A stretch of DNA of 64,000 nucleotides from Geosiphon pyriformis uo1 (taxonomy: Eukaryota > Fungi > Glomeromycota), in the NCBI GenBank assembly GCA_016748015.1, contig JAAOMT010000553.1, positions 1 through 64,000 on the forward strand, in the 5' to 3' direction. Every line of letters starts with the position of its first letter. Position 1 is the first letter of the stretch. This document shows, piece by piece, positions 10,246 through 58,804 of this stretch. Both the position numbers and the translations under genes were made by a program. Below the pieces are notes generated by a model, which worked only from the letters and a program-made list of their open reading frames with translations, did not search any database and was not told where the DNA came from.

Positions 10246-11686
10246 NNNNNNNNNNNNNNNNNNNNNNNNNNNNNNNNNNNNNNNNNNNNNNNNNNNNNNN
10301 NNNNNNNNNNNNNNNNNNNNNNNNNNNNNNNNNNNNNNNNNNNNNNNNNNNNNNNNNNNNNNNNNNNNNNNNNNNNNNNNNNNNNNNNNNNNNNNNNNNN
10401 NNNNNNNNNNNNNNNNNNNNNNNNNNNNNNNNNNNNNNNNNNNNNNNNNNNNNNNNNNNNNNNNNNNNNNNNNNNNNNNNNNNNNNNNNNNNNNNNNNNN
10501 NNNNNNNNNNNNNNNNNNNNNNNNNNNNNNNNNNNNNNNNNNNNNNNNNNNNNNNNNNNNNNNNNNNNNNNNNNNNNNNNNNNNNNNNNNNNNNNNNNNN
10601 NNNNNNNNNNNNNNNNNNNNNNNNNNNNNNNNNNNNNNNNNNNNNNNNNNNNNNNNNNNNNNNNNNNNNNNNNNNNNNNNNNNNNNNNNNNNNNNNNNNN
10701 NNNNNNNNNNNNNNNNNNNNNNNNNNNNNNNNNNNNNNNNNNNNNNNNNNNNNNNNNNNNNNNNNNNNNNNNNNNNNNNNNNNNNNNNNNNNNNNNNNNN
10801 NNNNNNNNNNNNNNNNNNNNNNNNNNNNNNNNNNNNNNNNNNNNNNNNNNNNNNNNNNNNNNNNNNNNNNNNNNNNNNNNNNNNNNNNNNNNNNNNNNNN
10901 NNNNNNNNNNNNNNNNNNNNNNNNNNNNNNNNNNNNNNNNNNNNNNNNNNNNNNNNNNNNNNNNNNNNNNNNNNNNNNNNNNNNNNNNNNNNNNNNNNNN
11001 NNNNNNNNNNNNNNNNNNNNNNNNNNNNNNNNNNNNNNNNNNNNNNNNNNNNNNNNNNNNNNNNNNNNNNNNNNNNNNNNNNNNNNNNNNNNNNNNNNNN
11101 NNNNNNNNNNNNNNNNNNNNNNNNNNNNNNNNNNNNNNNNNNNNNNNNNNNNNNNNNAAAAAAAAAAAAAAAATAAGCCAAGGCAAGAAAAAGTTAGTAT
11201 TCTATCAATAGTTATAATTAAAAGCTATTGGTCTAATATAGTTAAGTATTGGTAACTATTAACATGAATTGTTAATAGTAGAAAGATGAATTGTAATATT
11301 TAATAAGTATTTTATTATTATTTTATGTTTTCACTTTAAGTCATAGAATACTATTATATAAAAAGATAGAAGGGGAATTGAATTAGAGATTCTAAACTAA
11401 AAATTCTGTCTTTTCTGTTTCTAATGCTATCACTATATATACATAAATTTCGTTATATGAGATTTTTTAATTTTCTATTCAGAAATTCTGAAATTTTTGG
11501 AATCCTATAATTCCTTGAAAAGAATTTTGGAATTCTGGAATTCTGTGATTCCTTATATTAGAATCCTGTAATTTTGAAATCCTGCAATTTTTTTGAGAGG
11601 AATTCTGGAATTCCATCTTTACTATGTCTTATTCTGATTGGCTAATTTGTGTACTAATATATAATTCCTATATTTTATGAATAACA
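9825..11686 (-). mobile_element. Family B LTR spanning an assembly gap (N 10246-11158)
   Basis: Both termini are present (TATTACAG at 9825; ATAACA at 11686); both flanks are dUTPase fragments of an older Gypsy. Confidence 0.75.
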
Positions 11687-14600
11687 GTGTCTTTTTCTGA
11701 ATATTTAAGATCAAACTCTGCATCAGTATTATATGCATATTCTGACATGATACTTTTATTATTATTGCTAAACCATTTGAGTTTTTGCTTCTTTAAAAGA
11801 TTTGGAAGTGCTATATATTGTTCAAAATTTTTGTCAGAGTTTGAATTGTTGTTGTTACTGCCCATTTAGACAAAGTTAAAACCATTGTTGTTATTATTAT
11901 TAGAGTTTAAATTGTAATTGAATCTTAATTCCAATTTCACTGTATACTTGCTAATTGGTTTTTTTCTTCAGAAATTGAATAAATTATGCATAGTAGTAAA
12001 TTATAAATGAGATCACAATCATTACAGTATTTAAAGTCACTGGAAATTAAGCAATATTTATATAGCTTTGTATTTAGTTGTTTTAATTTTTGCTTTTGCT
12101 TTTTATAAGTCAGTGCTATGTATTGGTAGTTCTTATAAAATTGTTAATGAGTTATTTTTAATTTTCAGTATTTTATTGAGTGAAACATCTTCAGTTTTGA
12201 CACTTGTCATTCTTTAAATTTCATGTTTATTGTGTGAATAATTTTTTAATTATCTTAGTGCTCATTTTCAAACAGTATTAATCAGAGTCCCTTTTTATAT
12301 TTAATCATTAATTAAAATCATATATTAATACAATTTATTACATGTTTTTCTTGTCCAAAAATATTATTCCACATTCTTTTGTCAAAAAAAAATGGTTTTA
12401 CACACAAGACAAGACTTTTTGTCCTATTTTCTCTGTTATTTAGGTCATCCAAAGCATTCAAGAATGCATAGATAACAATAGTACTTGGTTGCCATTAATT
12501 ATTCTTTATCATTGCCACAACATGCACCTATTGTTGACAATTTTTTGCCACAATCAACACATATTAGCTTAAGTCAATGATAATTTATCTGTTTTTGGGG
12601 CATAATAGTGTACAGAATATAAGTAGATATAATAGCTTGGAGTTGTTGTTTTTTTTTGTTTTTTTCCAGATAAATATGGGTGGTAATATGTTGTGTTCTT
12701 TTTTGGTCTATGAAACTTAATAGGCTTTCCAAGTAGGTTTTTTTTGTTTTTTTTCTAACTTAATCAATAGTTGCTTTCTTAAAAAAGCTTTAATATGTTC
12801 ACAGATGGCAGGCACTCAAGTATACTGATTGTTAAATATTAACTGGAGCTTTTAAGTGTTTTAGTTAAGTATAATATTGGTTTTAAACAGCCAGTTATTA
12901 TTGATAAGAGTTTAGTATTGGGTGGCTTCTATTATTAATACTTTGATTGTTGTAATAATGTCATTAACTTCAAAAGAAAAGTTATTAATTTTATCTATTA
13001 GAGTTTTTGTTGTTTTATCAGCTGTAATTATTCTAATGCTAGCAGCTTAATTAACTCAATGACCTAATTAGTTCATGAGTTGTTATATAATAATGCTGTT
13101 TGTTGACTTATTATTAAAAATTAGCTTGATAAGTTGACTATCAACTTTAGTATTAGTATACATAACAGTGATTGAGCTAGTATTAAGAATGGCTCTATTA
13201 AACAGAAATGTTGATGTTAGTTCTTTGAATTCAAAAGGAAATAATGTGGCAAGTGATTTGTCTTTGATAATAGTTATTAGTAGGATGTTGTTAATGAGTA
13301 GTTGGTTTTGGTTGGTTTTTTGTTTGTTGAATTGGACATCTTTTGAGGTAATCAGGAGACTTAAATAGCTCTGTAAATTCGAATTTTGGGTGTACTCAGT
13401 TCTCAAATTCCTTGGACATAATTCTAATGTCTGTTGTAATAAACTGGAAATCAGCTAGTGCATAATCATTATTAATCTCCAATTTTATTGGATGTGCATA
13501 ATTTTTGGTCTTTGACTTTTAGATAATATTTGAGCTAAGTTGTATAGTAATACTGGAATTGGTAGAATTTGATAAACTATCTGTAGTTGATAGATATTTG
13601 GGGCTGGAGTTAGATAGAGTGGAGGTATGTATATTAATTGTTGTGTTATTTGGGTATAATGAGACTAAAATTGGTTCTGATTTGGGTTGTAGTTCAGAGT
13701 TTGAAACTGGCAATTGGAGTTTTAATATTGATTTTCCAATTGTTAGTTATTAAATTTAACATAACAATTAGCCCTTAGATGGCCTTGTTTATTACAATTA
13801 TAACAGCTATGTGTTTCTTGCTGCCATAATTGATTGTTTAATGATAATAAGAGATGTAACTAATTTTGGAATTAATTAAAATTTTTTAAATTGTCATAAC
13901 ATTGTAGAGATTGATAAATTGCTTGATTGTTAGCTAAGTATCTTTTTAATTTCTGGTTGATGAAATCACTAAATTGTTTCAACTTAGAGTTCAAGTCAGA
14001 TAATCTATTTATTACTAGATTAACAGTTTAAATATGGTTGGTTTTTAGCTTGGTTAATTTAAAATCTTAAATGTTCATAACTGTGTCTTAGAGTGTTTAT
14101 AGATATAATGAGCATATGCATTATAGAAAACTACTGCACAGACTGCAAATAAACTAATTCAAAATCTGTGGCACTATAAAATAATTTGTGTTGATTGTTT
14201 AAATTTAACACAAATTTCTATGAAAATATTTCAAGTAAGTAGTAACTGCTTTAGTGTTCTCTTGCTTGATAGTGGTGAAAACAGTTGTTAGATAATTAAT
14301 ACTATTATTGTTATTAAAATATCTCAAAAACTCAATTTTAAATATGTTAAAGATTTGGAGTTTTTAAATCAAGCTCTAATATTATGAGTTAGCAGTATTT
14401 TGTAAAAAGTATGGAATGGCTTATAGGGCTCTGGCATTGTTTCATCCATTGGCTGCAATGGCTTTTGTCATATTATTTAGTCATGTTTAAACATTGTTTT
14501 TTTCGCTGGTAAATTTCTCAAGTTTGGCAATTAGTATGTAGACTATTGGTATAAGTTGTTGTTATGGTTGTGATAAAAGTGATTATTAAAGTTGCAGAAA

Positions 14601-15055: not shown

Positions 15056-16134
15056 TTTTTCATATGAGTTTTTACACAGTATATTTTAAATATTGCTAAT
15101 GAATTTTTTAATATTGTTACCAGTAGAATTTTAGCTATTAATTAGCATGAAATTATCTTTATAATTTCTATAATTAATTAGTATATTAATATCATTTCAA
15201 ATTATCATTTATTATTTAATCAATTATCACATATCACGATTCAATTAAAATAATCTAATTAGTATAACAGAAAGTAGGATGATCAAATTACACAATACCC
15301 TGAACTTTATAACATTCAAAAATTCCCCGAAATTTACAGAAATTCACCAAAATTATGAATAGTTCACCCAAATTAATCAATAGTTCAGCGAAATAACTTG
15401 TAGTTTATCAAAATGTATCTTTAGTTTGCCAAAATTTGAGCAAAGAGAAAAAGTGCAAGTTCATAGACTAGTACTACAACAAATTGTATAAAAGAAGAGC
15501 TTTTCTCTTCTGAAAAATGTATCTTACTTTAGATTTATTACTTAGAACCATTCCTACACACACAAAAAGAAATAAATATCAAATAATTTGAAAAACCAAA
15601 TTTTTTAATTATTGCACTTGGAAAATCCCCAAAACCCAACTAATGTTTTGAAATTGATTAGCTACCAATTTTGGTAAACTGTTAGTGACTCCAGGCCTGG
15701 ATAGAAAAACGTTTCCCTTGATAAAATCCTATTTCTTTTATATTTCTTTTATTTTTCTTTTTTTTTCTTATTATAATCATTAGGGTAGCCTACAGACGAG
15801 ATTCCTGTAGAAGAGTTGACTTTCACAGCAAAGTAACTACACATTTTTTAGTGAGCTTCCAGACGAGCAATTTCTGAGAAAGAGTTGACATTTACTACAA
15901 CATAACTACATAAAGTAACTGGCAAGGAATTGGCCATTCCACTTATAAGCCCAATAGTTCAAATTATAAGAGATAATTTGAAGATAAATTCAGTTATTGA
16001 AGGTTCAACTACTTTTAAAAAAAAATGTGAATTGCAACCAACAGACATTTACAACATTCAAGAAAAGAGACCAAAAACCTCCAGTAACATTTGGTGCTTT
16101 CCCACAGAAATAACACAGCAACAACAAATTCAAA

Positions 16135-18567
16135 GTGGCAACCACACCAGACACAGCAACTCTAGAGTATTGTCAGTCAATTTACACCCACTGCAAGCAA
16201 AGATTCAACATTCCAGACGGAATTGAAGTTGTCAAGAAATCAGTATACCAATACATTGAAAACTGCTTCAACAATTATCTTTTTGGAAACTACAATATTT
16301 CAGAAGTTAAAAGCAATCTCTACAATAATTTAGTGCACTATTCACAATTGGAAACAGAAGACCTGAACAGTGAAACACTTGCTACCTACTTTCAAGAACT
16401 TAATTTTAATATTATTAAGTATTGTGAAGAAAAATACCCAGTACAGTCTAAATACTCTTTTGATTTTGAATCAGAGACAGAAGCAAACAACAAAGGCAAA
16501 CAAAGATTGAAGCAATACTCAAGAACCATTTCAAACACTCCAACACTACAAAAGACAACTGCCAAACACTTGCAAACACCTGAACAAAGAACCAGTATTA
16601 AATTACCACTTTCTATTACACCATTTCCAATTTTACTTGTTCAACTACAAACACCAAGTTCACCACTTAACTATTTCTCTAGACCAGAAGATTTTCAGTC
16701 ACCTAGAAATCCTACTCAACAACAGGAATCAATATCAACAAGTGCCAATATCATTGATTACTTACAGGAAAACGAAAGTAATCACTCAGAAAGCTTGGAA
16801 AGTGAAAAAACTGAATCAGAACCAGAAGAAATTACAGAAAACAAAGAAAAAATGGCAGCTGCTTACATTGCAAAAATCCCAGAATTCATTGGTAAAAACA
16901 ATGATACCAGTCCTCAAGAATGGCTTGACAAAGTTCAAAAAGCAGGAGCTGCAAATGGTTGGATCGCAGCAAGAATGCTCAAAGCAATTCTCTACTTTCT
17001 CCAAGAAACAGCAGGAGAATAATTTGAAAACTTAGAAGAACTATTTGAAAACTGGCAAGCATTCAAAGATGCTTTTCTACAACAATTTACTGACAACAAT
17101 ATTTCTATTACTCTCAGAAACCACTTTTGCAATATCAAACAAGAAATATCTGAATCTGTTATGACTTATCTTGGAAGATTTAACAAACTTCTCAGATGAA
17201 TCCGACAATTGGAAACCAATAATTACTATTCTGATGCTTAAATTCTGGATCAGTTTATAGCAGGATTAAAAGACAAACTGATTAAGAAAGTCTGTCTACA
17301 TGCTCCAGCAGATTTAGCAACTGCTATTAGACATGCAAAAAGCTATGAAATGGCAATGGAAGAAGCAAATCACACCAAGCTTGTAAATCTTGTAATTGGA
17401 GAAACCAGCTTAGCAGCTAAAGAAAAGATAGACCAACTCACAAAGAAAGTTGAAAGCTATTTTACAAACCAACAACAACAGCAGTAACAACCACAAAGAT
17501 ATTAACCATCACAATGACACAACCAAAACAATTTTGGATCACCCTCCAACAACCAACCTCAAAATTGTCATTATTGTGGAATTTCAGAACACTGGAAACG
17601 AGATTGCAGAAAACTGCAAAGAGACCAACAAAACAGGAGTAATCAACATTACTCTTTACCACAACAATCCTATTACCAATCTTTACCACCAACCTATTAT
17701 TTACCAAGATCACAAAATCAAAACAGTTACTATTCACCAGCTCCACAACCAATGCAGCAACAATATCAGCAATCTTTACCAATTCAGCCATATCAGATAC
17801 CACCTACTCAACAATATCAAGTACCAGCAAAAAAATTGGTTCAACATAATCAATTCACACCCCAAAATCAATTGCAGAATAACCACAACAGAATCAATCC
17901 AAATAACCAGTTGGTTCCTCGAAATTTGGGTCAGCAAAGACTCAATCACTATCACACTCAACCCAGTTATCTTACAATACCAGAGAAATCGGATTTTCAA
18001 CAAACTGCACTTTCTGAAGATGAAGTTGCAGTGCCAAGATCAAACCCTTCCAACCACACCATTCCACCAGCTCAAATTGCCCAAAATGCTAATCTGTCAG
18101 ATATATTTCCATTTGAATTTGAAGCAAATGAATCACTATTTCTGCTTAGTAATACAGCAGTCAATGAACAGAAAGCAATTACTGTTATGTACACAAAAGC
18201 TACAGTAAAAGGAAAACCCATTCGCTTAATCTTAGATAGTAGATTAGCTGGAAGTATCATCACTTACCAGCTGATGCAACAACTCAAACGAAACATAGAC
18301 AGACCAGCTCAAACAGTTATTGTCACAGCTGATGGTATAAAAAAGACTCCAGTAGGAGAAATTGATGATTTCCTTTTTTCAATTGATGGAATCACCATTT
18401 CAGTTAAAGTTCTTGTTATGGATGCACCCCAATACCAAGCTCTAATCGGAAATAATTGGCTTCTCAAGGCCAATGCAAACCTGAACTGGGAAACTCAAAA
18501 ACTTAAAATCTCATACCAAGGACAATATACCATAGTACCTGCAACCTATAGTACCTTTAACAAATGA
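16135..18567 (+). pseudogene. Gag (capsid, CCHC knuckle) and aspartic protease of element A
   Basis: AKIPEFIG..PQEWLDKV capsid; CHYCGISEHWKRDC at ~17566-17607; Q/P-rich linker; LILDSRLAGSII (degenerate DSG) ...ALIGNNWL; several stops. Confidence 0.9.
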
Positions 18568-18609
18568 TCAGAAAAAGCTCCAGTATTTGAATTTGAAGAG
18601 AAGAAAGAA

Positions 18610-19400
18610 ATGCCACTTACTGAAACCTACATGACTCTTGGATCAACATCCAATTGGGCAGAAGAAACAGAACAAGAGATTTTTGAAGAATCAAGGGGAT
18701 GGAAGAAAGTTAGATATTCTACACCAGAACTATGGAAACAACCATCTTATATTCTACTCAAATGCAAAGATTGCAACAAAAAACTTTCATCAATGGGAGT
18801 ATGTATTTCTCCAAAAGAGAAATATGAAACTCATACCTGTTACTTTTGCAAAGCATGCCATAGAGAACGATTTGAATCTCCAAAAAGAAGTGGAAAATGG
18901 GACAACACACCTTGCCTTACATGTGGAGAAATGCTACCAGAAAAATGCAATTGGATTAATGTAGCAATGAGAGAAGGAGTATGTGATCAAACCTGTCAAT
19001 ATGCTTTATCAATTTCGGAAAAAGTCAGAAGAGAAACACCATTTGATACAACATACAACAGTGCTCTCAATAAACTTTACCACTACCCTCATGATGCTGA
19101 AATGATTTTTGACCTAGCAATGGCATTGATTAATGGAGCCACACAAGAAGATGTCTGCCAAATGAAAGAATCTGAATATATTGAGTATACCATGGAATTA
19201 GCTGGATTTGATTATGAAGATAAAGTAGAAACCTACCACCAAATTGCAAGCCACACATATTCGACCAAAGAAGCTCAAATTCAATGATTAGAGCAAATGA
19301 ACATTCAATTGTGTGAAGAATGTGTTATGCCTTGTGATGACCAATGGTGTTTAGAATGTTATGCTTTTAGCATTCCTCTGCCAGATGAGAATGATGAAAA
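18610..19400 (+). pseudogene. Cys-rich putative Zn-binding module between protease and dUTPase
   Basis: CKDC..CYFCKACH..CLTC..C..CDQTCQY..LCEECVMPCDDQWCLEC, in the same frame as PR and dUTPase. Confidence 0.7.
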
Positions 19401-19479
19401 TAAAATCGAATTTGGAGTATCTGAACTAGTAGAAGAACTACCAATCACTCCTATCTATCTTCTTGAAAAGCAACCACCT

Positions 19480-19915
19480 CTACAACTTAAATATTTTAAC
19501 AATCATGGCCAAGAAATCAGACCAAAAAAAGCACACGAAATTGATGCTGGATATGACCTAAGATATCCAGGAAAAGATACTTTGATTCTCTAACCAAAGT
19601 CTTTAACAAAAATCAATCTCAAAATTGTTCTTGAAATTCTACCAGGAGCAATGGTTCAAATTGCCTCCAGATCATTATTGGCAAGCAAAGGAATCAATAT
19701 TAGAGGAGGAGTTATAGATACAGGATACACTGGAGACATTACCATTATGTTACAGAATGAGACAGACAAACCATTCAAAATTGAACATGCTGAAAAAATT
19801 GCTCAAGCAATTTACTTACCCTTAATCAACATTTCGGGTTTACAATCAGTAAACAACAAAGAACAATTGGGAAAAAGTGAAAGAGGAACTCAAGATTTTG
19901 GTTCAACTGGACAAT
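19480..19915 (+). pseudogene. Trimeric dUTPase domain in pol
   Basis: All five motifs: AGYDL, SRS(L)L, GVIDTGYTG, KIAQA, RGTQDFGSTG; one TAA at 19591. Confidence 0.92.
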
Positions 19916-20399
19916 TTACAGTTCCAGTAAACATAGCTCTTAATACACAAAATGAATCTTACCAGATTTTTCAATTTTCTCAACCAATTACCATTTCACC
20001 TTTTGGAGAACATCACGAAATTTACACTTGCTCAAAACCCACTACTACCCAACAAATCTTTAAATCCAATGAACAAATTTGTTTGAAGCATGAAATATTA
20101 ATTCCAAATGTTTATATTCCCAAAGGAATGAAAAAATTTTGAGTTATATTCTACAACCCCAATAATTACCCTATTGTCTTATTAAACAAATTAGAAATTA
20201 GAATCATACACAGCAATATCTTTCAAGATGAAAACCCTCAAATTGTCTCTAATTTCATTGAAATTGTAAAGCATACTTTACTCCCAAATCCAAATATCAT
20301 TCCCAATACTGAAAACTACCACTTGTTGGAAGAAAAACTCTCTCAAATCAATATGGGTTCCTTATAACCTCAACAACAAAGACAATTGAAACAATTGAT

Positions 20400-21747
20400 A
20401 GCTGAATTTGCAGATATATTTGCAAAAAACAACAATAACTTGGGAAAAACAGACATTGTTTAACATCAGATCCATACAAGAGATGCTCTACCAAAACATC
20501 AACAAACTTATCAAGTGCCACCTGTCAGCCACCAATTTATCAGAGAAGAAGTCCAAAGAATGCTCAATAACGGATTGATTCAACCATCAAGAAGTTCTTG
20601 GGCCTCACCAGTAGTTTTAGTTAAAAAGAAAAACGGAAAAATCAGATTCTGTGTTGATTATAGACAACTAAATAATGTTACAATTGAAGATGCCTATCCT
20701 TTTTTAAGAATTGATGACATGCTAGATGCTCTAGGAAAAGCCAAGTTCTTTTCAACTTTAGACCTGGAAAGTAGATACTGGCAAGTCGAAATGGACCCAA
20801 AACAGCATTCACCACTCAAGGAGGAAACTATGAGTTTAATGTTATGCCTTTTAGACTCTGCAATACACCAACAACATTTCAGTGACTCATGAATGTTGTC
20901 TATGAAGGGCTCTTGTGACAATCAGTAGTTGTCTATCTTGATGATACTGATGTATACTCACCAAGCTTTGAAGCCCATCTCATTTACCTGTGAGAAGTTT
21001 TTCAATGATTACAGAAAGCAGGATTAAAGTTAAATATTGAGAAATGTCACTTTGGAAAAACAAGCTTGATCTTTTTTGGACACATAGTCAGTAAAGATGG
21101 AATCAAACCAAATCCAAGAACAATTAGTGCTGTCAAAAACTTTCAAACCTCCAGAAATACTACAGAACTAAGAGGATTTGTGAGATTAGTCTCTTACTAT
21201 CAAAAATTCATAAAAAGATTCTCAGAAATTGCCAAACCACTCAATTATCTTACCAACAAGAACGTACCATACAAATGGACTGAAAAACAACAAAAAGCTT
21301 TTGAAATTCTCAAAACAAAATTGACAACAGCCCCAGTTCTTGCTTACCTGGACTTCAACAAACGATTCCAATTAGCCACTGATGCTTCACACATAGTATT
21401 TGGTGCTATTTTATCACAATTAGATGAAAATGGCCAAGAACAAATTATTGCCTATGCCAGCAGAACACTCAAGCCAACAGAACTCAAATATGGCTCAACT
21501 GAATTAGAAGCTGTCACAGTTATTTGGGCTCTTAAACATTTTCAACAATATCTGAAGAATGGAAAAGAATTTAACATAATAATGGACAACATTGGTCTCA
21601 AATGGCTTAATAAAAAAAAAAACTGAACAAAGTGCTAAACAGTCTCAATGGAATAACTTCCTAGCAGACTACAGATATATTGTACACCACAAATCAAGAA
21701 AACTACATACCAATGTTGATAGCCTCTCAAGAATAAGACAAGATTAA
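20400..21747 (+). pseudogene. Reverse transcriptase and RNase H (Gypsy)
   Basis: WASPVVLVKKKNGKIRFCVDYRQLN, YLDD at ~20934, ATDAS, IAYASRTL, ELEA, NVDSLSR; frameshifts and stops. Confidence 0.95.
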
Positions 21748-21804
21748 TACCAACAACAATTCCACCACAACTTACCAACTTATCAACAAAATAGCCAAAC
21801 AAGA

Positions 21805-23190
21805 ATGGATCCCAGAAATTACAGCAATCTTAAAAATTATTTGGAAACTCTTATCATGCCAGAAAACTGGTTTCCAAGTGAAAAACACCACTTACAACAC
21901 CAATCAAAACAATATTTTATACACCAGAACAAAATCTATTATAAAAATCACAGAAAACCAAACCAACTACTCAGATTAGTACAAGAGAATAAAAAAGAAA
22001 CAATTTTATACAACATGCACACAAATCCGTCTTCAGCACACTTGAGAAAAAAGGGAACAATTCAAAGAACCCTTGAACATTATTTTTGGCCTCACATGCA
22101 AAAAGACATTTGACAATATGTAGAATCTTGTGATAGTTGTCAAAGAAGAGGAGGAACTCGCCCCACAGAACCTTTAAATCCAATCAAAGTTGGACAACCT
22201 TTTAACAGAGTTGGAATTGATTTAGTCAGACCATTACTTATCACAACCCAAGAAAATCATTATATTGCAGTTGCAGTGGATTATCTTACCAAATGGTCTG
22301 AAGCTAGAGCCATCCAAAGAGCAAATGCAAAATCAATAGCAAATTTTATCTATGAAGACATTATCTGTAGACATGGATGCCCAATTGAACTCTTATCTGA
22401 TCAAGGAACACATTTTGTGAACAACTTGATACAAAAAATTTGTGAACGGTTCAATGTCAAAAGACCTCTATCATCACTTTATTACCCTCAAACAAATGGA
22501 CTTGTAGAACGTTTTAATAGAACATTGTGTGAATCTCTAGCCAAAGTCTCAACAGACTTTGAGCAAGAATGGGATATCTTTATTCCATCAGTGTTACTAG
22601 CATACAGAACACTAAAACAAGATACTATAAAACACATACCATTTAATCTTACTTATGGAAGGACAACAACATTACCAATTAATTTTACAGTAGAAACATA
22701 CCCAGTGCAACCAATCAATGAAGAAAACTTTTAAGAGACATTCTAAAGAAGAGCCTACACTCTTCTTAGTACACTGAAAGGAAAAAGAAGAATAGCAGCA
22801 ACTCATATTAAACATTCCCAAGCTTAACAAAAAGAAAGACATAACAACAAATTACCATCTATTACCAACGAATTTAAAGTTGGAAATAAAGTTCTCTTAC
22901 ACAGAACTAAGGCTGAAAAACAATGGAGTGGGAAATTTGAAAACAAATGGGATGGACCATTTTATATTCACGAAATTCTAGGCAATGGATCATATAAGTT
23001 AAGACTTGATGACAAAATATTAGCAAAAGTTGCACATGGAGACAGATTGAAACACTATCATTCCAAAAACAATCCTGAACCATTAATTTCACAAATTGGT
23101 ACACATTCCTCTTTAATTAATCCTGAAGATATTCCTCGAAATTTAGAACCAATAATTATAATAAAACAACAACCAAACTTGAACACTTAA
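21805..23190 (+). pseudogene. Integrase (HHCC, DDE core, GPY/F) starting at its own ATG
   Basis: MDPRNY...H..H..CDSCQR; GIDLV; DYLTKW; SDQGTHF; PQTNGLVERFNRTL; WDGPF. Confidence 0.92.
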
Positions 23191-23332
23191 AATTTACAAT
23201 AATTCTCTAATAAAAACACAAAGACAAAAATAGTAAATAATTACAAAACACCCAAACCCAAAAACAAATAAAAACCCCATATCCAAAAATAATTTTCTTT
23301 ATTTTCTCTTTTCATAATTAGTCAATTTTATC

Positions 23333-23981
23333 ATGATTATTCCCCGAAATATTCAACAAATATCCCAAAAATTAATGTTAGCCTTGAAAACACTCCCTGA
23401 CTTATCTATAACGATTAATGGAAGTCAAATTAATTACATTTAGAAAAAAACCACAGCCCCAGTAGTAAATCATTTACAGAACTATCACCCCTATAGAAGA
23501 AAAACAAGAAGTCACTCTGAGAATAGATTACCAAGACTTTTGAAGCAAGCACTAAAAGAAAATCTTTTAATTGCCCCTATTGACATTCCACCAAATGCTA
23601 TAATGCAACAAAAACTTCTACTACTTCTCAATGAACAGAACAATAAACACACTCCTATCTATAAATACTTTCACATTGGAAAAACACTTTATGAACGAAA
23701 ACTGGAACTTGAAGCAACAAATCTCACTCCTGAAGCTATACAAAAACAAATCCACAATAAATTCAAAACAGCAGCTGGACCAACAAACACTCGCTACAAA
23801 CTTAGAACAGCTCTTAGACTCTATGACTTGTTTAATACTTGTGAAAATGTTCTACAAAATCCAATACTGCAACCAATGAAAGTCTAATATATTGGCAAAC
23901 TCACAGAACTGAAATTTCAACAATTTTCAGACCAGATTACTTCAATTATTTTAGATCACTATCTCAATATTACAGATAGTG
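23333..23981 (+). pseudogene. Accessory ORF3 (~215 aa, no signal peptide or TM segment) between integrase and 3' LTR
   Basis: One frame MIIPRNIQQISQKL...ITING...YKYFHIGKTL...RTALRLYDLF...KLTELKFQQF with two stops; homologues at 53369 (-) and 60222 (-). Confidence 0.75.
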
Positions 23982-24883
23982 NNNNNNNNNNNNNNNNNNN
24001 NTTTATTATTTAATCAATTACCACATATCACGATTCAATTAAAATAATCTAATTAGTATAACAGAAAGTAAGATGATCAAATTACACAATACTCTGAACT
24101 TTGTAACATTCAAAAATTCGCCGAAATTTACAGAAATTCGCCGAAATTATGAATAGTTCACCCAAATTAATCAATAGTTCAGCGAAATAACTTGTAGTTT
24201 ATCAAAATGTATCTTTAGTTTGCCAAAATTTGAGCAAAGAGAAAAAGTGCAAGTTCATAGACTAGTACTACAACAAATTGTATAAAAGAAGAGCTTTTCT
24301 CTTCTGAAAAATGTATCTTACTTTAGATTTATTACTTAGAACCATTCCTACACACACAAAAAGAAATAAATATCAAATAATTCGAAAAACCAAATTCTTT
24401 AATTATTGCACTTGGAAAATTCCCAAAACCCAACTAATGTTTTGAAATTGATTAGCTACTAATTTCGGTAAACTGTTAGTGACTCCAGGCCTGGATAGAA
24501 AAACGTTTCCCTTGATAAAATCCTATTTCTTTTACATTTCTTTTATTTTTTTTTTCTTTTCTTATTACAATTATTAGGGTAGCCTACAGATGAGATTTCT
24601 GTAGAAGAGTTGACTTTTACAGCAAAGTAACTACACATTTTTTAGTGAGCTTCCAAACGAGCAATTTCTGAGAAAGAGTTGATGTTTACTACAACATAAC
24701 TACATAAAGTAACTGGCAAGGAATTGGTCATTCCACTTATAAGCCCAACAATTCAAATTATAGGAGATAATTTGAAGATAAATTCAGTTATTGAAGGTTC
24801 AACTACTTCTAGAAAAAAACATGAATTGCAACCAACAGACATTTACAACATTCAAGAAAAGAGACCAAAAACCTCCGGTAACA

Positions 24884-27240
24884 ATATCAATAATATTTTG
24901 ATTAATAATAAAAAAACAGTTACTATTTTTATTAATCAGAGTGTTAAAACTGCCTCATTAATAATCAGTAATTTGTTAATTTCAATTGCTAAAAAAGGTG
25001 AATTGTGCAGGTACTTGGAAATTTTTTTGTCAATAAAAAGTTTTTTTAAGCTTAAGTTTATACTAATGTTAGGTTTTTTTCTAATATGGTGTTAAGAAAA
25101 GCAATTATAAATAAACAGTTTTTTTATTTGATATTGGCTGTCTTGTAGCCTATTGTTAATTATTAATTATAGTTTAGTTTTGTCTTATCAAGTATATATT
25201 ATAAATAAGATATAATAATTAGAAAAAGTTTTAAAACTAAGACTAGTTTGCCACAAAACTTTTTCAATAAAACTTTGCATCATCTATTTTTGTATAGTTT
25301 AAAGCCTTTTGAACAAATGCAATTTAAAAAAAAAATGGCATTATTGATTGCTTTTTTTAATATATTAAGCATTCTTGGATGTTTGTTTAAATATAAGCTT
25401 TTGGATTTACAAGTTCTAAAGTGATCTTCTTCAAATTCACTGCAGTTTCCTATCAAGTTGTATATTAGTCCAATAAATAATTTTTTGGTTAAAGTAGTAA
25501 AATTTTTTTGGACAATAATTTATTTTTGGTAAACAATTTGTCTTGTATATTTCATAATCTTAGTAAATTTCTAATATTAAACATTTTAGGAAAATTTCTG
25601 TATTATAGTTTTGCTTTTTTTTTGAAATAATTTGGAGTTGTATTTTGTAACAAACTTTTGAACAAAAAAGAAAATATGATGAACTGAAAAACTTTTTATT
25701 AGTAGAAAAAATTAGATTCTAAAGGTCTTGTGTTTTATTGATTTAAGTTAATATCTGAATTTTTGAATAATAAAAGTTCTTTAGTGGTTAATTCTACAAA
25801 AAATAATAAGTTATTTAGGTTAAATGTTTTGAAATCTAATGAATTCTCTAATATACAAAAGAGCTTGCTTAAAGTTTGGTCTAATTTTTTTAAGATTTAC
25901 ATAAATGGTTTTTTAAAATATACTGGTTCTATTAAAATTGCTAATGAAATGACTACTTACTTTTTAGTTATAAATACAAGCATTGATATTAAAATATATA
26001 GACTTTTATTCTCCACAATAACCAAATTACAGACTGTTATACTGTTTTTAAAATGTGTTTTATTTTTTTATGCTGTAGTTTTGTATTTAAATAGCCAATT
26101 TGCTATTGATACATGTGTTTTTAAAGTTTTGCTTATTGCACCATATTTTCGTAATTAGTGCTAAACAGAAAGAAGACATATTACCAATCTAATTAAAGAT
26201 AAAAACTTTTCTGTTAAATAAGTAAAAGTTAAAAGTTATTTAGATATTTTAAACAATATTAAAACTGATATAATGACAAGTAAGACTGTTTACTTTCTTT
26301 TTTTTTTGCCAACTGAGATTTGAAAACAGTTTATAATGGCTAAAGAAATAGCTATGTCTAACAATGCTTATTATTTTGTTTGTAATCTGTACAAATTTAT
26401 TTGTTGTGCTTAATGAAAAAATAATTCTAATTATAATGTAATTCCAAATAGGCTGATCAGAAAGATGAATTAATTGGTTATCATAAGAGTTTAACATCCT
26501 AATTTACACATATTTAATAAAAGCAGTACACAAATAAATATCAATAACAATTAGAAAAAGATTATATAATAAGATGTATCTTAATATATTGTGTTTATTG
26601 TATAATAAAGTAGAATTGTTTGATCATGTTTTTACTTATGTTAAGAATAATAATATTTAAGAGAAAATTTTAGAGAAAGCTTTTATAAAGTAGATGTTAT
26701 TAGTAAGTATTTACTGCCCATCTTTTTTTGTTGTCTTGCAAACACTTTTTTAGTGTTCTTTAAATATAAATCTATATATGATAATTTACAAAGAATTTGT
26801 GCTAAGAGATAAGACTATTATAGTTTTTAATGGAAAAGTAAAAGCTATTTCTATTTTTGTTAAGTATGTGAAATATTTGGTAAAATTACATCACACTAAA
26901 ATTTGGTTTATAAGATTTAAGCATAAGATAGACATAGAAAAAACTGAATTAATTAAAAATAGTAGTTTAGTTTTAGGTTTGTCTTGTTATATAGTGTTTA
27001 TGTTATCAGATAACATAATTCAATTGTTTGATATAATAAATTTTTTTGCAATTAGCTTTGGTAGATACAGACTTTGTTTTTTTTTTTGGTTTGAATAAAG
27101 ATACATATGTTAGTATAGATATTTATTATTATTTTTTTTAGTCTAAGTGGCTGATTACATATAATAAAAGTATAAACTGTATTTAGTTTAAGCCATTAGT
27201 TTGGTTTTATACACTAAATAGCAGTTAGACTTCACTCATT
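24884..27240 (+). mobile_element. Decayed non-LTR (LINE) retrotransposon with RNase H; its upstream part is 15060-15114
   Basis: Removing element A restores TQYILNIANEFFNI|NNILINNKKTV (post-DD RT region). ORF 25763-26158 is an eroded RNase H (YxDG..STxAELQ..LDSQ). Confidence 0.75.
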
Positions 27241-46638: not shown

Positions 46639-49600
46639 TATTACTCATAGAAAATAGAAGTATTATTATAATTAGAAGAATAGCCAATCAAAAATAGGCG
46701 TAATAACAGAAAAATTCTGGAATTTTTTATAAAAAATTGCAGGATTCCAGAATTCTAGGATTTCTTTAAAAAAATCGCAGAATTTCAGAAATCTTGTATA
46801 ATACCAACTATGTATATATAGCAGTAGTATTGGAAGCAAGAAAAATAATTCAGGCAAATTCAGAATTCAGAATTTGGTTTAGTTCTAGTTTAGCATGCTC
46901 TTTTTTGTCTATTAAATAACTTTTACTTCACAGATAGTTAATATTTACTAAAGTAAATTCATCCACAAAATATCAAATAAAGCATATTTGTTATTACCTA
47001 ATCTATATTGCCATTATTTGTTTAAGAATCTAATCATTCTTTTATTTATCAACATTTCATGTTAATAACATCTAATACTTAACTATACTAAAACAATAGC
47101 TCTTAATCACAGCTATTGATAAGATACTAATTTCTTATTTTTTTCTTATTTTCTTTTATTTTCTTTTATTTTTCTTTTATTTTTCTTTTGTTGTGTTGAT
47201 TTATTAATAAATTAAAGAATTAAGTACTGAGTAATTATTGTCAAAAATATTCTGATAAAAGACCCAGAAATAAGAGTATAGAATTTATAAATTAACGAAT
47301 AGCTTACCAGAAGAACACAACTGCCAGAATAAACCAGCCACCATGCTAAAAAAAAAATTTAACAGAATAACTATTCCAAAAGACTATTGAAACAATCATT
47401 GAATCTTTGTTCATTATACAAAAAACTTAACCAAAATCTTCAGATATTACCAATATATACTAATATTAATTAGCTATTAAGCACCAAGTTATGAATTTGT
47501 TATTTGTATCAACATCCAAATAATTACCTGTAACATTTGGTGCTCTCTGTAAAATATAATCTAACAGAAAACCAGCACCAACAGCAATTATCTAGAACAG
47601 TGACAGAATCAGAAAAAACAGAAACAAACCACTTGAGATTTACAAAAACTTTATTTTAATACTATCAATCTCACCTAAGATTAACAAGTAATTATTGGCC
47701 AGCAGAATTGATTTTCAATTTCTAAAAAATTAAATCTCACATAGAAAACCAAAGAAATCTGAAAGCAGTATTTACCAATTTTTATAATAAATTACTTTAG
47801 AGCACTACATTTCCACAAAATTATTTGTTTGTACTAATAATTACAGAAATCAACAAAGAAATTAAAAAACACACCAAACAGAAATTTCTTATTATCTTTG
47901 CAAACAACAACAAAAGAAAATTACAAACACCAGCAGAAACACTAAGAAACATACAACTATTTACTTAAAAAAAACCAAGAATAGTTTTACCTATTCACTT
48001 ATCATATTACCACATGTCTGGAAGTACTATTAATATACTATTAGGAGGTGTATTATCATTAACAAAAACTTTATTAGCAAAAATAATGTTCCAAAGCCAA
48101 CAAAAAAAAGCTAATTTATTGGGAACTTATGGCAATTACTTTGAAAGATTCAAATCATGATTACCAATGCCATCAAAATTTTAATTATCACTATCTTAAC
48201 CTAATTTTAGAGCTACCAATTTGTGAGAAATAACTGATTCAAAAAAAAAGAAAGATGAAGATCAAAAATTTAATTACCAAAACCCAATTTCAGAAAACCT
48301 GGAAATACAAACTCTGATTGTTCCAACTCAGCAAAATCAAAACAATTCAAACTTTACTCTGATTGTTCTAACTCAGCAAAATCAAAACAATTCAAACTTT
48401 ACTCTAATTGTTCCTCAAAACTTACCTCTAGTAATTGTGATCAATTTACCACTAGTTGTACCAATCATAAAACCACAACAACAGTTACAACTATCATTCT
48501 AACAATAACAACTTCAATAACAACAATATTAATAACAACAACCACAACCATTATCTGTACCAATGGCCTATGTACCAATTGTAAAACTTGAAAAATTTAT
48601 TGGCAAAAAGAACAATACACAAGTTTGGCTCAATAATATGAAAAAAGCCATCACAGTCAATAGATAGAACAATACCAGAACATTATAGGCAATCTTATAC
48701 TTTTTTCAAGATACTGCCAACTCATGATATTAAAGCTTAATTCAAAAACCCCAAGACTTCAATGTGTTTAAACTAGAATTTTTAAGATATTTTAATAACA
48801 ATAATAGCATCAATTGCCTAGCAAATACTTTTACAATTATTAAACAAGGAAATATTAAAGCAGTTACTACTTATTTGGGATGTTTTCACCAAAATTTGTA
48901 ACAAATACAAGTCATTGATGTGAATTACTTTATGGTGCCACAAATTTTGAATCAATTTATTCATGGTTTGCACAATAGTCTTTTATAATATGTATGTCTA
49001 ATCCATTCACAAACACTTCAAGACACAGTCACATACACCTGAAATTTTGAATCAGCCGAGCTAAAAGCTAATTATGCTTAAGCCATTAATCTAATAATAA
49101 ATGGATCATTTGACTTGGACTCCAAGTTGAAACAATTTAGTAACTCTATTAATCAAAAATAAAAAGAATACTTAGTTAACAATTAAGTAATTTATTAATC
49201 TTTACAATATTGCAATAATCTAAGAAACCCAAATTGTTTTTAAAATTAATCACATTTATTATTGTTAACAAATCAATAGTAGTAACAAGAAACACATATT
49301 TGCTACTATTGTAGTAAACAAAAACATTTACAAATTAAATGCCACATCTGGTTAAATAAACAATAATCAGAAAATCAATATTGAAATATCCAATTACTAA
49401 TTTCAAATACTAAATTATCAATTAAGTTCAAGATCATATCAATTTTATTATGTTCCAATAATACAACAAGCAATATATTTACCACCAATTTATTAGCTTT
49501 TAGCATTAATAATATATCAACCACAGCCACAGGTTATCTATTAATCTCAACTATTTTAAACACCACTACAAAATTCAGCTCAAATAATACCCAGAAACCA

Positions 49601-51902
49601 AAAACTAAGAATTACTTATACTTAACAAAACTAAAGATCAGCAATAGTTATGCATCAACAGATCTCTAGTTCATTAAGTCAACCATTAGGATCATGCCAA
49701 TGGAGTTTGAAAACTGGATACAATCAAAACCCAAATTTCCAGAACTATTTAAGTCTTTTGGTTATCTCAGAAAATGTTCAATTTAACAAACAGAAGTTCA
49801 ATTAAACCCAACTACTCACTAACAATATTCTATTAACTATCATCAACAAAATAAATCACTTATCACCATCTTTTCTTTTGAACTTGAAGAACCAGTTAAA
49901 ATGCCTTTATTTAATTGAGCTGTCTTTGAAGCAAAACCAATTACTATAATGTACACTAACACAAAAGTTGATGGCCATCCTATCAAGCTAATTTTTGATA
50001 ATAAATCAGCAGACAGCATCATTACATGACAACTTATAGACCAATTAGGTCATCAAGTTGATCACATTATTAACATTAAAATTATTATAGCAGATTAAAC
50101 AACAAAAACTCTAATTGGTGAAATCAATAACTTTCTATTCAAAGTTAATGATATTGTCATGCCAATTAAAGTCCTTGTCATGGAAGTTACATAATACTAA
50201 GCACTAGTTGGTAATGACTAATTGTTCAAAACCAGTGCTATGCTCAACTAAATTACTCAAGAGCTACAGCTTAATCAAAACAGATAACACACATAAGTAT
50301 CAGCTATGTGTAGTTATTTCAAACCACAAACTACTTAACCACAACCACTAATAGAATTAGAAAAAAAAAAAGACAAACCTATTTGAGAAGTCTACCAAGT
50401 TTTGTGGGCTAAAAAAGATTACAACATACTACTGCTAATCCTATTGTGGAATAACAAAGAAAAAGGAAGAGAAGAAGACAAACCACAAGCCACCATTAAT
50501 ACCAGCAAAACTGCCAACAGTTGGCACATACTGTACTCTGGAGACATAAAAAAAGAACTATCCTACATTTTCTCAAGTGTATTGATTACAAGAAAAAGCT
50601 TTTATCCATAAAAGCTTGAATTGCATCAGAAAAAAACTACTGAATATGTACTTATTATTACTGCAAACCATATTACCAAAAATGTTTTGGTTATTCAAAA
50701 TAACAAGGAAAGTGGGACAATAAACCATGTCTTACTTGTGAAAAGATGCTACTTAACAAAAAAATGTGAAATAATATTCTTGGTCAAGAAAAAATATACA
50801 ATACATTGTGTCAATACACAATCCTTATTAGTAATTAGATAAGTTGAGAAATGTCTTTTAATACTGCATAGAACTAAGTACTATTATGTTTAAATGGTTA
50901 TTCCTATGACAAAAACAAAATTTGGTGAATGACCAGTGCCAAAATTGAAGACATATTGTCCAGTAAAATATTAGTAATCAAAAACAACCCACCAGAACTG
51001 GTCAAAACCGTTTTTATTTCCAACCCAAACACATTTTTTGATATCTTAAGCAATCCAAAACAATTCCACAAACATTATTAAAACTTAACACTCATTAGAA
51101 AAAAACAAGAGCAGTATTTAGAATAGCTAAATACAAGACTCTGTAAATACTGTTTAATTCCTAGTAACTTCAAATATTGTGATGATTGTGATCTTATCTA
51201 CAATCTACTATTATGCATAATTTATTTAATCTCCAAAGAAGAAAAACCAATCAACAAATACATAGTAGAATTAGAATTAAAGTTCAATTCCAACTCAGAT
51301 TTTGATAATAACAGCAACAACAGTTCTAACTTTATTCACTATGGCAATAACAATGATGATTCAAACTCTAATTATAACTCTAAACAATATATTATGCTCT
51401 TAGATCTGTTGATAAAGCAGAAACTAGTAATAATAAGGAAAGTATTATGTCAGAATACACACATAATACTGATGCAGAGTTTAATCTTAAATATTCAGAA
51501 AAATGGCTATTAAATTAGAACCACATTCACACACCAGCATTGATTTAAAAATAGCATTGGAAATTCTGATAACAACAATGGTTTAGTTAGCATTTAGATT
51601 TAGTTTAGCAAAAAAAAAATTAATATCAGAGGAAAAATAATTAATACAGAATATATAAAAAATATCATTACAATACTACAAAATGATTCAGAAAAACCAT
51701 ATATAATTGAACTAAATAAAAAAATAACACAAACAATATTCCTATCTCTGGTGAAAATAGCTTAATTAGTACCAGTAAGAACAAGAAAAAAATTAAGAAT
51801 TATAGCCAAAAGGAAAAATAGATTTGAATTCATAGGTAAAATAGATATACCAGTTAATATAATAGAGGAAAAAATCATTAATAAGAAAAAAATTATCTCC
51901 AC
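46639..51902 (+). mobile_element. Decayed Gypsy (family B): 5' LTR 46639-47535, PBS, gag, protease, Cys-rich module, dUTPase; interrupted at 51902
   Basis: TATTACTCATAG...TACCTGTAACA then TTTGGTGCTCTCTG; protease remnant ~49930-50300; GKWDNKPCLTC at ~50710; dUTPase remnant ~51450-51840. Confidence 0.85.
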
Positions 51903-54900: not shown

Positions 54901-55075
54901 TTTTGTTTTTTTTTCTCTTTTTATAGTGTATCATAAAAGTGTATAGTAACAGTGCAATTTTTCATCTTGTATGTTAATCGTCTCTAAATTTTTGTTTCTA
55001 GATTAAAGTCAATCTTTTGTGATTGGTGTGTACTTCAAATTTCTAGCTTAAGTATTTCTTTTCATTTCATGACAG

Positions 55076-58047: not shown

Positions 58048-58804
58048 ATAGTCCAATATATTGCTAAGTGTTCTAGTGCTGGTATTCCATAGTTTTTTTC
58101 AGCTAGTATTAAGCTTCAACTGACATATACTACTGGATGTTCTCTTCTATTTGGTTTTTTTTGTGATAGTATGACTCCCAATGCTTGACCTAATACATTA
58201 GTGATAATAATGAATAGTTTGCTATAATTTGAATAGATCAGTATTAAAGCCTAAATGAGCTTTTTTCTCAGTATGTCAAAAGCTTTTTGTTGTGTTTTAG
58301 TCTATTTATATTTAACATTCTTGGTTTGTAAATAATACAGTGATTAAGCCAGTTTGGAAAAGTTTTTGATAAAATGACAATAGTACTCTGCAAATCTCAA
58401 GAATGCTTATAGCTCAGTCAAGTTAGTAAGTACTAGAAAAGACTTTATTACTTCAATTTTATTTGGATCTGTTTTAATGCCCTCTTTGCTTATGACATGT
58501 CTTAAAAACTTGAGTTCTGTTTTGTCAAAGAAACACTTGGTTGCATTTAGTTTCAATCCTGCTCTTTTCAGTCTTTCGAACACTTGCTAGAAATAATGAA
58601 AATAATCATCAAATGTTTTTGAAAACACATTGGTGTTATCTAAATACATGACTACTGATTTCCATAATAGTCTGGTATAAACAATTTCCATTAGTTGTTG
58701 AAATATAACTGGTGTGTTGGTTAAGCCAAATGGTATTACTTCAAATTCAAAATTTCTTTCTCTTGTGGTAAATGCCATCTTATTTTTATCTTCTGGATTC
58801 ATGG

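What the first reader, a model, noticed from the sequence alone, without database searches (positions are those of the whole stretch)
15115..24883. Gypsy lineage with a retrovirus-like, three-cistron, accessory-rich genome
Seen: LTR-PBS-gag-PR-Cys module-dUTPase-dUTPase-like-RT-RH-stop / ATG-IN-stop / ATG-ORF3-LTR, with 4-bp TSD. The parts recur in divergent copies with different LTR families (11687-15055, 46639-51902, 51903-58804, 58805-64000). Known: standard Metaviridae encode IN within pol and carry no such accessories; dUTPase occurs sporadically in retroviruses and a few fungal Gypsy elements. Inference: a distinct, possibly undescribed clade.
Basis: partly seen in the sequence, partly recalled or inferred. 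Interest (0 to 1): 0.85.

Follow-up and report, generated by a model that had tools for sequence, protein, structure and literature searches.

The report
Fungal retrotransposon with stand-alone integrase gene
This decayed fungal jumping gene belongs to a widespread Ty3/Gypsy lineage whose integrase is a separate gene behind a real stop codon, likely made by ribosomes restarting after that stop, followed by a third, non-envelope gene with no known fold match; this branch also carries a dUTPase and a cysteine-rich module.

Summary
Observation largely confirmed. 15115-24883 is a decayed Ty3/Gypsy element (LTRs 96% identical, 4-bp TSD) of a Glomeromycotina fungus; 86 of 88 Gag-Pol hits are named Geosiphon pyriformis. 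Layout: gag-PR-Cys module-dUTPase-RT-RH-stop / ATG-IN-stop / ATG-ORF3. The split is real: no variant was listed at the stop or the ATG among sister copies, and 0 of 51 metagenomic relatives fuse RH to IN. ORF3 is a lineage-wide, soluble, mostly helical protein with no fold match; it is not Env, so 'retrovirus-like' overstates it. The Cys module and dUTPase are branch traits (44 of 88 hits hold PR-Cys-dUTPase in order; an unbroken relative is 45% identical) and are absent from 80 wider relatives. The second 'dUTPase-like' domain is unproven. IN is most likely made by termination-reinitiation (inferred). New here: 25 of 80 relatives, but not this element, carry a covarying ~40-nt RNA just before the IN start, paired with a Cys/His tail on Pol. 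Others carry NUDIX or nucleotide-kinase domains. Six paper searches found no description of the lineage; Repbase and GyDB could not be checked. This scan found the split integrase before, in this genome and two others.

The parts
15111..15114 (.). left target-site duplication ATAT
   Evidence: sequence
15115..16089 (+). 5' LTR, 975 bp, TGTTAC...GTAACA
16092..16109 (+). PBS-like TGG motif two bases after the LTR; primer tRNA not identified; 3' limit approximate
   Evidence: no tRNA gene in the window
16114..16851 (+). N-terminal extension of Gag, no informative Pfam match; present in 67 of 88 relatives; start codon not seen in this copy
16852..17499 (+). Gag capsid (Retrotrans_gag E 9e-12, Ty3_capsid E 3e-6)
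17563..17613 (+). nucleocapsid CCHC zinc knuckle, followed by a Q/P/Y-rich linker
18196..18459 (+). aspartic protease; motif reads DSR here, DSG in intact relative P0044
18751..19383 (+). Cys-rich module, about 210 aa, 13 conserved Cys; predicted zinc-binding; no family match
19474..19914 (+). dUTPase (PF00692 E 5e-22); the five trimeric-dUTPase motifs are recognisable by eye (motif definitions recalled); one internal stop
19915..20346 (+). conserved ~140-aa domain after the dUTPase; degenerate-dUTPase identity unproven
20347..21260 (+). reverse transcriptase (YLDD near 20934), frameshifted near 20810
21261..21747 (+). RNase H ending at TAA 21745-21747; the extra A at 21612 is absent from the 3 contigs that cover it
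21748..21804 (+). 57-nt C/A-rich spacer, no ATG, no predicted structure
21805..23190 (+). stand-alone integrase gene (N-terminal extension, H2C2, DDE core, GPF motif/SH3, no chromodomain hit); 4 internal stops
23191..23332 (+). 142-nt spacer without ATG
23333..23981 (+). ORF3, soluble and mostly helical, ~235 aa in intact sisters, whose last codons match the first bases of the LTR; 2 internal stops; runs into the N gap
23982..24001 (.). 20-N assembly gap hiding the ORF3 end, the PPT and the start of the 3' LTR
24002..24883 (+). visible part of the 3' LTR
24884..24887 (.). right target-site duplication ATAT
11671..14531 (-). divergent copy: gag, PR, Cys module, dUTPase start
48578..51843 (+). 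divergent copy: gag, PR, Cys module, dUTPase
52767..58766 (-). divergent copy B: RT-RH (broken by a nested insertion near 55076-58045), TGA, 60-nt spacer, ATG-IN, ORF3
59654..63946 (-). divergent copy A: dUTPase, post-dUTPase domain, RT-RH, TAA, 31-nt spacer, ATG-IN, ORF3

Best explanation
This is a decayed copy of a high-copy Ty3/Gypsy LTR retrotransposon, likely from Geosiphon pyriformis or a close relative, whose Gag-protease-Cys module-dUTPase-RT-RNase H reading frame ends at a real stop, whose integrase is a separate gene likely translated by ribosomes restarting after that stop, and whose third gene encodes a non-envelope protein predicted to be soluble and helical. SHOWN: the anatomy; the stop and start are lineage traits, not decay; ORF3 is inherited with the lineage; the Cys module and dUTPase are traits of this branch. 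[quoted passage not shown]
For: Stop and start are real. Among 927 contig pieces of run X1 laid on 21600-21830, 22 positions vary at 8% or more, none in the TAA or the ATG. Two divergent window copies stop at the homologous place (TAA, TGA) with 31- and 60-nt spacers. 99 of 120 listed IN homologues begin within 6 residues of the same Met and none has more than 25 extra N-terminal residues. 0 of 51 metagenome loci with RH upstream fuse RH and IN in frame. Fits reinitiation: 8 of the 47 junctions with a located ATG overlap stop and start (-1 to -20). 24 of 30 spacers up to 210 nt have no ATG (13 ATGs seen, 41.7 expected, 0 of 1000 shuffles as low); purine at -3 in 63 of 71 and G at +4 in 62 of 71 IN starts. 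RT and IN identities correlate across 35 elements (Spearman 0.54, 0 of 999 permutations), so they travel together. ORF3: 25 of 43 loci with room have a downstream ORF, 20 of the 25 cluster with this ORF3, profile match probability 94.9, model pLDDT 83, no TM segment in 32. Accessories: 44 of 88 hits hold PR, Cys module and dUTPase in order, and unbroken P0044 is 45% identical over 1060 columns; 13 Cys are conserved. CpG o/e is 0.15 in the element against 0.93 in gene-rich flanks.
Against: Nothing here measures RNA or translation. Seven spacers are 286-1600 nt with 4-34 ATGs each, which simple scanning after termination does not explain. ATG-free spacers and a strong start context fit a subgenomic RNA equally well. 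25 of 80 relatives have a structured RNA just before the IN AUG, which may point to internal initiation; this element lacks it. In this copy the spacer is in frame and stop-free, so readthrough is formally possible here. Run X1 may be the sample the window was assembled from, and only pieces at least 80% alike were laid. The protein search excluded proteins over 805 aa, and the 80 loci are the best of 533 ranked by IN similarity. The role proposed for ORF3 rests only on a weak DUF1016_N lead (3 of 32 members, best E 0.056; Atlas rank 19, score 0.85).
Confidence: 0.5

Rival explanations
1. Same element and same split, but IN (and ORF3) are made from subgenomic RNAs, by an internal promoter or by splicing, as for env of errantiviruses or pol of foamy viruses (recalled).
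For: Long spacers full of ATGs in 7 relatives. ORF3 would otherwise need a second restart. Rotifer ORF3s are described as typically expressed from spliced messages (PMC5408684, passage). An AG lies 10 bases before the IN ATG in this copy.
Against: No consistent branch-point and acceptor pattern before the IN ATG across 66 sequences; the apparent CAG peak is part of the RNA motif. Eight overlapping stop-start junctions are the usual sign of coupled translation.
Confidence: 0.28
2. IN is made by cap-independent internal initiation. The ~40-nt structured RNA is the entry or control site in one branch, possibly bound by the Cys/His tail of Pol, and the C/A-rich spacer serves as an unstructured entry site in this branch.
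For: The motif lies 4-33 nt before the IN ATG in all 21 pattern matches with a located ATG; 96% of cells pair and 7 of 13 pairs change on both sides. With at least 600 nt upstream, 19 of 20 loci with the motif have the Cys/His domain and 0 of 34 without the motif have it.
Against: The motif is absent from this element and from 55 of 80 relatives. It could equally be a reinitiation, packaging or cleavage signal. The co-occurrence is largely one branch of the IN tree, so it is not independent evidence. The structure was derived from these same sequences.
Confidence: 0.14
3. The stop after RNase H is read through at low rate, giving an ordinary Pol-IN fusion.
For: In this copy the 57-nt spacer is in frame and stop-free. 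Five relatives have a single in-frame TGA between PR and RT, four with CTA after it, so the lineage may use readthrough elsewhere.
Against: 32 of 43 listed junctions put IN in another frame. Window copy A is out of frame and copy B has stops in its spacer. The IN Met is conserved across homologues about 45% identical.
Confidence: 0.05
4. The split and ORF3 are artefacts of decay: a CAA-to-TAA change in a dead copy and a chance ORF.
For: This copy has 18 other internal stops and 2 frameshifts.
Against: as above.
Confidence: 0.02

Closest known systems
Ty3/Gypsy LTR retrotransposons (Metaviridae), e.g. yeast Ty3 (ICTV profile PMC7879559, whole text read)
   Same: LTRs, PBS-like site, Ty3-type capsid, CCHC knuckle, order PR-RT-RH-IN. 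Ty3 is the best solved match for the IN profile (E 5.9e-49, against 4e-32 for foamy virus) and for the RT-RH of close relative L003 (E 5.8e-47, against 8.7e-20 for the best retrovirus).
   Different: ICTV places IN inside pol and names env as the third gene. Here IN is its own gene and the third gene is not Env.
dUTPase-bearing Gypsy elements: Postia PosPlaTy3-5, Phanerochaete and Tuber elements (PMC2864245, passages); bdelloid Juno/Vesta/TelKA (PMC5408684, passages); planarian Burro (PMC6431247, passages)
   Same: dUTPase between PR and RT; rotifer families also carry a non-Env ORF3, and Juno has an extra zinc knuckle after the dUTPase.
   Different: The passages seen mention no separate IN gene. 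Rotifer ORF3s are Env, GDSL esterase, DEDDy nuclease or TM proteins, unlike this ORF3. The 13-Cys module before the dUTPase has no family match.
Ginger1 DNA transposons (PMC2836005, passages)
   Same: A stand-alone Gypsy-type integrase with an N-terminal extension before H2C2 (YPYY-like by eye), a GPY/F motif, TGTNR termini and a 4-bp TSD.
   Different: Ginger1 has terminal inverted repeats, no gag-pol, and C-terminal OTU or Ulp1 domains. Here IN sits behind RT-RH in 51 of 80 loci (the others show no RH upstream, many being short contigs), and the window element has LTRs. Kinship was not tested by tree.
Termination-reinitiation systems: LINE-1 ORF2, SART1, fungal victoriviruses, caliciviruses (recalled, no call)
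   Same: A second gene starts at or shortly after the stop of a long first gene.
   Different: Unrelated elements; none makes an integrase this way. The analogy is for mechanism only.

Membership tests
Metaviridae (Ty3/Gypsy) | internal region flanked by two LTRs | tested here: met
   96.4% identical over 882 bases; start of the 3' LTR hidden by an N gap
Metaviridae (Ty3/Gypsy) | PBS after the 5' LTR | tested here: inconclusive
   TGG motif at 16092; no tRNA set to match it
Metaviridae (Ty3/Gypsy) | PPT before the 3' LTR | not testable with these tools
   falls in the N gap 23982-24001
Metaviridae (Ty3/Gypsy) | gag with capsid and nucleocapsid domains | tested here: met
   PF03732, PF19259, PF00098
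Metaviridae (Ty3/Gypsy) | PR, RT, RH, IN in Gypsy order with Ty3-type sequences | tested here: met
Metaviridae (Ty3/Gypsy), canonical layout | integrase encoded within pol | tested here: not met
   filed as a variant of the Ty3/Gypsy kind, not a canonical member
Metaviridae (Ty3/Gypsy) | RT tree placement among named clades | not testable with these tools
   no named reference set available; the trees have no outgroup
env-bearing elements (Errantivirus, Retroviridae) | third gene is an envelope protein with transmembrane and surface domains | tested here: not met
   0 of 32 ORF3s reach a 19-residue hydropathy of 1.6; 140-240 aa, mostly helical model
Chromoviruses | chromodomain at the IN C-terminus | tested here: not met
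   Pfam on IN gives H2C2, rve, SH3 only; no chromodomain family in the precomputed domains of 120 homologues
Ginger1 | terminal inverted repeats and no RT | tested here: not met
   direct LTRs and RT-RH present
Ginger1 | YPYY, H2C2, DDE and GPY/F motifs in a stand-alone integrase | tested here: inconclusive
   H2C2, DDE and GPF seen; YPYY judged by eye only
Ginger1 | CCGG/CCGT target duplication | tested here: inconclusive
   one site, ATAT, in a region with strong CpG loss
trimeric dUTPase (first domain) | PF00692 above the curated cut-off | tested here: met
   78 bits against cut-off 22; enzyme activity untested
trimeric dUTPase fold (second domain) | detectable homology to dUTPase | tested here: inconclusive
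   hhalign probability 0.6; 1 of 6 pairwise tests significant; not folded
DUF1016_N-like domain (ORF3) | PF17761 match | tested here: inconclusive
   3 of 32 members, best E 0.056; Atlas score 0.85

The most novel reading that the evidence does not exclude
An undescribed, Glomeromycotina-wide clade of LTR retroelements runs its integrase as an independently regulated gene. One branch controls it with a new ~40-nt RNA element read by a zinc domain on Pol, ORF3 is a new-fold adaptor that brings free integrase into particles, and branches repeatedly capture nucleotide-pool enzymes (dUTPase, NUDIX, nucleotide kinases). The clade is a living intermediate between Gypsy retrotransposons and Ginger1 DNA transposons.
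Probability: 0.2. Interest if true: 0.88.

Novelty: new variant of a known kind. Interest (0 to 1): 0.64.

Why it matters
In the standard account, LTR retroelements package integrase by making it part of Pol. A large, apparently successful lineage that breaks this rule needs another way to translate and package integrase, and intact members exist to test it. A ready-made stand-alone Gypsy integrase gene with TGTNR ends makes the open question of how Ginger1 DNA transposons relate to Gypsy (PMC2836005) testable with a tree. It also explains why many arbuscular-mycorrhizal gene models are lone 'DDE integrases' and 'hypothetical proteins', and gives a structure to part of the LTR expansion reported for G. 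pyriformis (41.2% of the genome, PMC11952901, passage). The copy itself is dead, and dUTPase capture alone is not new.

Tried and rejected
No whole genome is held, so no genome-wide copy survey or consensus was possible; natural intact relatives were used instead. Viral-contig scans: nothing for the single IN and only distant, partial integrase matches for the profile (32 loci, 22-43% identity); not used. No RNA holder was listed; runs X2 and X3 gave 4 and 0 laid pieces. ORF3 fold searches found no match: Foldseek PDB 0 at E 0.001 or better, VIA wide best Z 5.2, viral 0. Sequence search of PDB, Pfam and PHROGs gave nothing convincing. The first ORF3 model (pLDDT 49) was not searched. The HMMER search of 1.84 billion representatives with the narrow ORF3 profile gave only 36 hits. 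The Atlas gave no hit over 0.77 for the Cys module. Rfam: 0 matches in 15000-25000 and in 8 loci. The RNA model found nothing at this element's IN start; its best window hit was 15.6 bits elsewhere. A splice-acceptor reading of the CAG before IN was dropped once the CAG proved to be part of the RNA motif. The Pol-tail Cys/His domain of relatives is not detectably related to this Cys module (hhalign probability 1.3). Four 'fused' flags were out-of-frame overlaps, corrected. L073 and L077 (broken pol) were dropped from the spacer test. The IN tree is the quick version; the careful search did not finish. The alignment was uninformative and unused. Paper searches aimed at a prior description: searches listed only general or unrelated papers; searches returned 0; one search returned 5, none on this lineage by title or abstract start; one search listed general Metaviridae papers. 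The G. pyriformis genome paper is not held. Passages of PMC3248453, PMC12440569, PMC6839031, PMC9453076 and bioRxiv 10.64898/2026.05.21.726589 showed no separate-IN LTR lineage. No supplements were opened; those of PMC2836005, PMC2864245 and PMC11952901 may hold related fungal elements.

Full report
What is there. The region is one LTR retrotransposon. The 5' LTR spans 15115-16089; the 3' LTR is visible from 24002 to 24883 and differs at 32 of 882 positions, 31 of them transitions; ends are TGTTAC...GTAACA, the flanks are ATAT on both sides, and a TGG PBS-like motif starts at 16092. One frame from 16114 to 20808 holds Gag capsid, a CCHC knuckle, protease, dUTPase and the first half of RT, with 12 internal stops. 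After frameshifts near 20810 and at 21612, RNase H ends at TAA 21745-21747. Integrase runs from ATG 21805 to 23190 and ORF3 from ATG 23333 into a 20-N gap at 23982-24001 that hides its end, the PPT and about 93 bases of LTR. Intact sister ORF3s end in residues that the first LTR bases encode, so ORF3 ends inside the LTR. The copy is dead.

Host and copy number. No genome is held. 86 of 88 hits to the PR-to-RT region and all 120 listed hits (of 207) to ORF3 are named Geosiphon pyriformis, so the host is likely that fungus or a close relative. 25,025 contig pieces of run X1 lay on 3,081 bases of the element, a very large family. Neighbouring GC-richer DNA has ordinary eukaryotic genes (SDA1, NAA35, PRKCSH-like) with CpG o/e 0.93, against 0.15 in the element. 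The 31 LTR transitions are not confined to one dinucleotide context, so I infer methylation-linked decay rather than classical RIP, without a direct test.

Is the RH/IN split real? Yes. Among 927 X1 pieces on 21600-21830, 22 positions vary at 8% or more, none in the stop or the ATG, and the extra A at 21612 is missing from all 3 contigs that cover it; X1 may be the source sample. Two divergent window copies stop at the same place, with TAA and TGA and spacers of 31 and 60 nt. Of 120 listed IN homologues (of 1,170; lengths limited to 253-805 aa), 118 start with Met, 99 within 6 residues of this Met, and none has more than 25 extra N-terminal residues. The decisive test used DNA: of the best 80 of 533 metagenome loci, 51 have RNase H upstream and 0 of 51 fuse it in frame to IN. 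In 47 the ATG was located: 8 overlap the stop (-1 to -20) and the rest have spacers of 24-1600 nt in all three frames. Named members of these IN clusters come from Rhizophagus irregularis and Entrophospora; most loci have no host. RT and IN identities correlate over 35 elements. In an unrooted quick IN tree the three window INs group with L003 (support 100) among the other split-IN elements; with no outgroup, monophyly is untested.

ORF3. 25 of 43 loci with at least 600 nt downstream have an ORF of 100 aa or more right after IN; 20 of the 25 link to this ORF3 by BLASTP clustering, and a profile of 21 of them matches the Geosiphon profile with probability 94.9, E 4.4e-8. None of 32 members has a transmembrane segment. 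The model is confident (pLDDT 83) and mostly helical but matches nothing in three structure searches, which does not prove a new fold. The only lead is weak DUF1016_N similarity. ORF3 is a lineage-wide accessory and not Env.

Cys module and dUTPase. Of 88 hits, 80 match the Cys region, 51 the dUTPase, 47 hold PR, Cys and dUTPase together and 44 in that order; the unnamed protein P0044 is an unbroken 1,064-aa ORF 45% identical with the same order. Thirteen cysteines are conserved; no family or Atlas match exists. Both modules recur in divergent window copies but in none of the 80 wider loci, whose PR-RT linkers are 23-276 aa in the 23 measurable cases against 582 in P0044. They are traits of one branch. 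The domain after the dUTPase is conserved, but its dUTPase ancestry is unproven. Other branches carry other nucleotide-pool enzymes: NUDIX between PR and RT (L074), a NUDIX-deoxynucleoside kinase gene between RH and IN (L078), and a weak thymidylate-kinase-like Pol tail (L060, below the Pfam cut-off).

How IN is likely made. This spacer is 57 nt, C/A-rich, ATG-free and unstructured; 24 of 30 short spacers lack ATG (13 seen, 41.7 expected), and IN starts have a purine at -3 in 63 of 71 and G at +4 in 62 of 71. With the 8 overlapping junctions, this favours termination-reinitiation (0.5). Seven long spacers with many ATGs argue for a subgenomic RNA in at least some branches (0.28). A further clue came from the relatives: 25 of 80 carry a ~40-nt motif just before the IN ATG that fits a three-way junction with 96% of cells paired and two-sided changes in 7 of 13 pairs; RNAalifold recovers two of the three helices; Rfam has no match. 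Among 54 loci with at least 600 nt upstream, 19 of 20 with the motif have a Cys/His domain upstream of IN (a C-terminal tail on Pol where RH is visible) and 0 of 34 without it do, though most belong to one branch. This element has neither. Internal initiation gets 0.14 and readthrough 0.05. None of this was measured on RNA.

Comparison with what is known. RT-RH and IN are Ty3/Gypsy-type. The ICTV profile puts IN inside pol and names env as the third gene (PMC7879559, whole text), so this is a variant. dUTPase between PR and RT is known in Postia, rotifer and planarian elements, and non-Env ORF3s in rotifers (passages). Ginger1 transposases are stand-alone Gypsy-type integrases with TGTNR ends and 4-bp TSDs (PMC2836005, passages); the likeness is a lead, untested by tree. 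Searches found no description of a separate-IN LTR lineage, but the library lacks most subscription papers and Repbase, so absence from print is not shown. Earlier notes of this scan report the split IN in this genome and two others; I had reached it independently.

Verdict. The three-gene plan is a property of a broad lineage; the dUTPase and Cys module mark this branch; 'retrovirus-like' should be dropped. New variant of a known kind, interest 0.64.

Noticed in passing
L043:4456-4505 and 24 other loci (L010, L019 weak and not counted, L020, L024, L026-L028, L032, L034, L039, L041, L042, L044, L046, L047, L052, L058, L061, L064, L066, L068, L070, L073, L074, L080): Covarying ~40-nt three-way-junction-like RNA just before the integrase ATG, found nowhere else in the 80 loci, no Rfam match; absent from the window element.
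   Followed up: partly
L010:899-5719, L027:301-5166, L043:2-4441, L070:275-5824 and others: Acidic, Cys/His-rich C-terminal tail of 220-400 aa on Pol after RNase H; co-occurs with the RNA motif in 19 of 20 loci and in 0 of 34 without it.
   Followed up: partly
L011:2500, L012:2884, L023:5334, L065:3292, L078:5470: Single in-frame TGA between protease and RT, followed by CTA in four of five; suggests programmed readthrough after PR in a sub-lineage.
   Followed up: partly
L074:2-2443, L078:6939-8252, L060:2300-3013: Nucleotide-pool enzymes in relatives: NUDIX between PR and RT; a NUDIX plus deoxynucleoside-kinase gene between RH and IN; a weak thymidylate-kinase-like Pol tail.
   Followed up: partly
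L001, L004-L006, L009, L013, L014, L016, L017, L075, spacer before IN: A second spacer type with repeated ACGGA/GGAC words and a TTTTGATT-TAAC ending, seen by eye.
   Followed up: no
L017:6546-6941, L026:1524-1886: A different third gene, ending in a helix-turn-helix-like pattern by eye, clustering apart from the main ORF3 family.
   Followed up: no
L014, L026, L062, L064, L080: gag appears downstream of IN in the same orientation, suggesting circularly assembled or tandem elements.
   Followed up: no
window 8296-8871 (-): Inverted copy of this element's LTR (72-91% in pieces), possibly a solo LTR.
   Followed up: no
window 51903-64000: Nested stack: copy B is interrupted in RT near 58805 by copy A's LTR and in RNase H by an insertion at about 55076-58045 with its own ~2-kb-spaced repeats and a dUTPase remnant at 56892-57068.
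   Followed up: partly
window 10075-11255: Open frames of 325-378 codons in all six frames in very AT-rich DNA; probably a simple repeat.
   Followed up: no
window 1752-2108, 30870-31256, 37238-37672, 38857-41533: Host gene pieces: PRKCSH-like, a weak DEAD-box match, NAA35 and SDA1.
   Followed up: no
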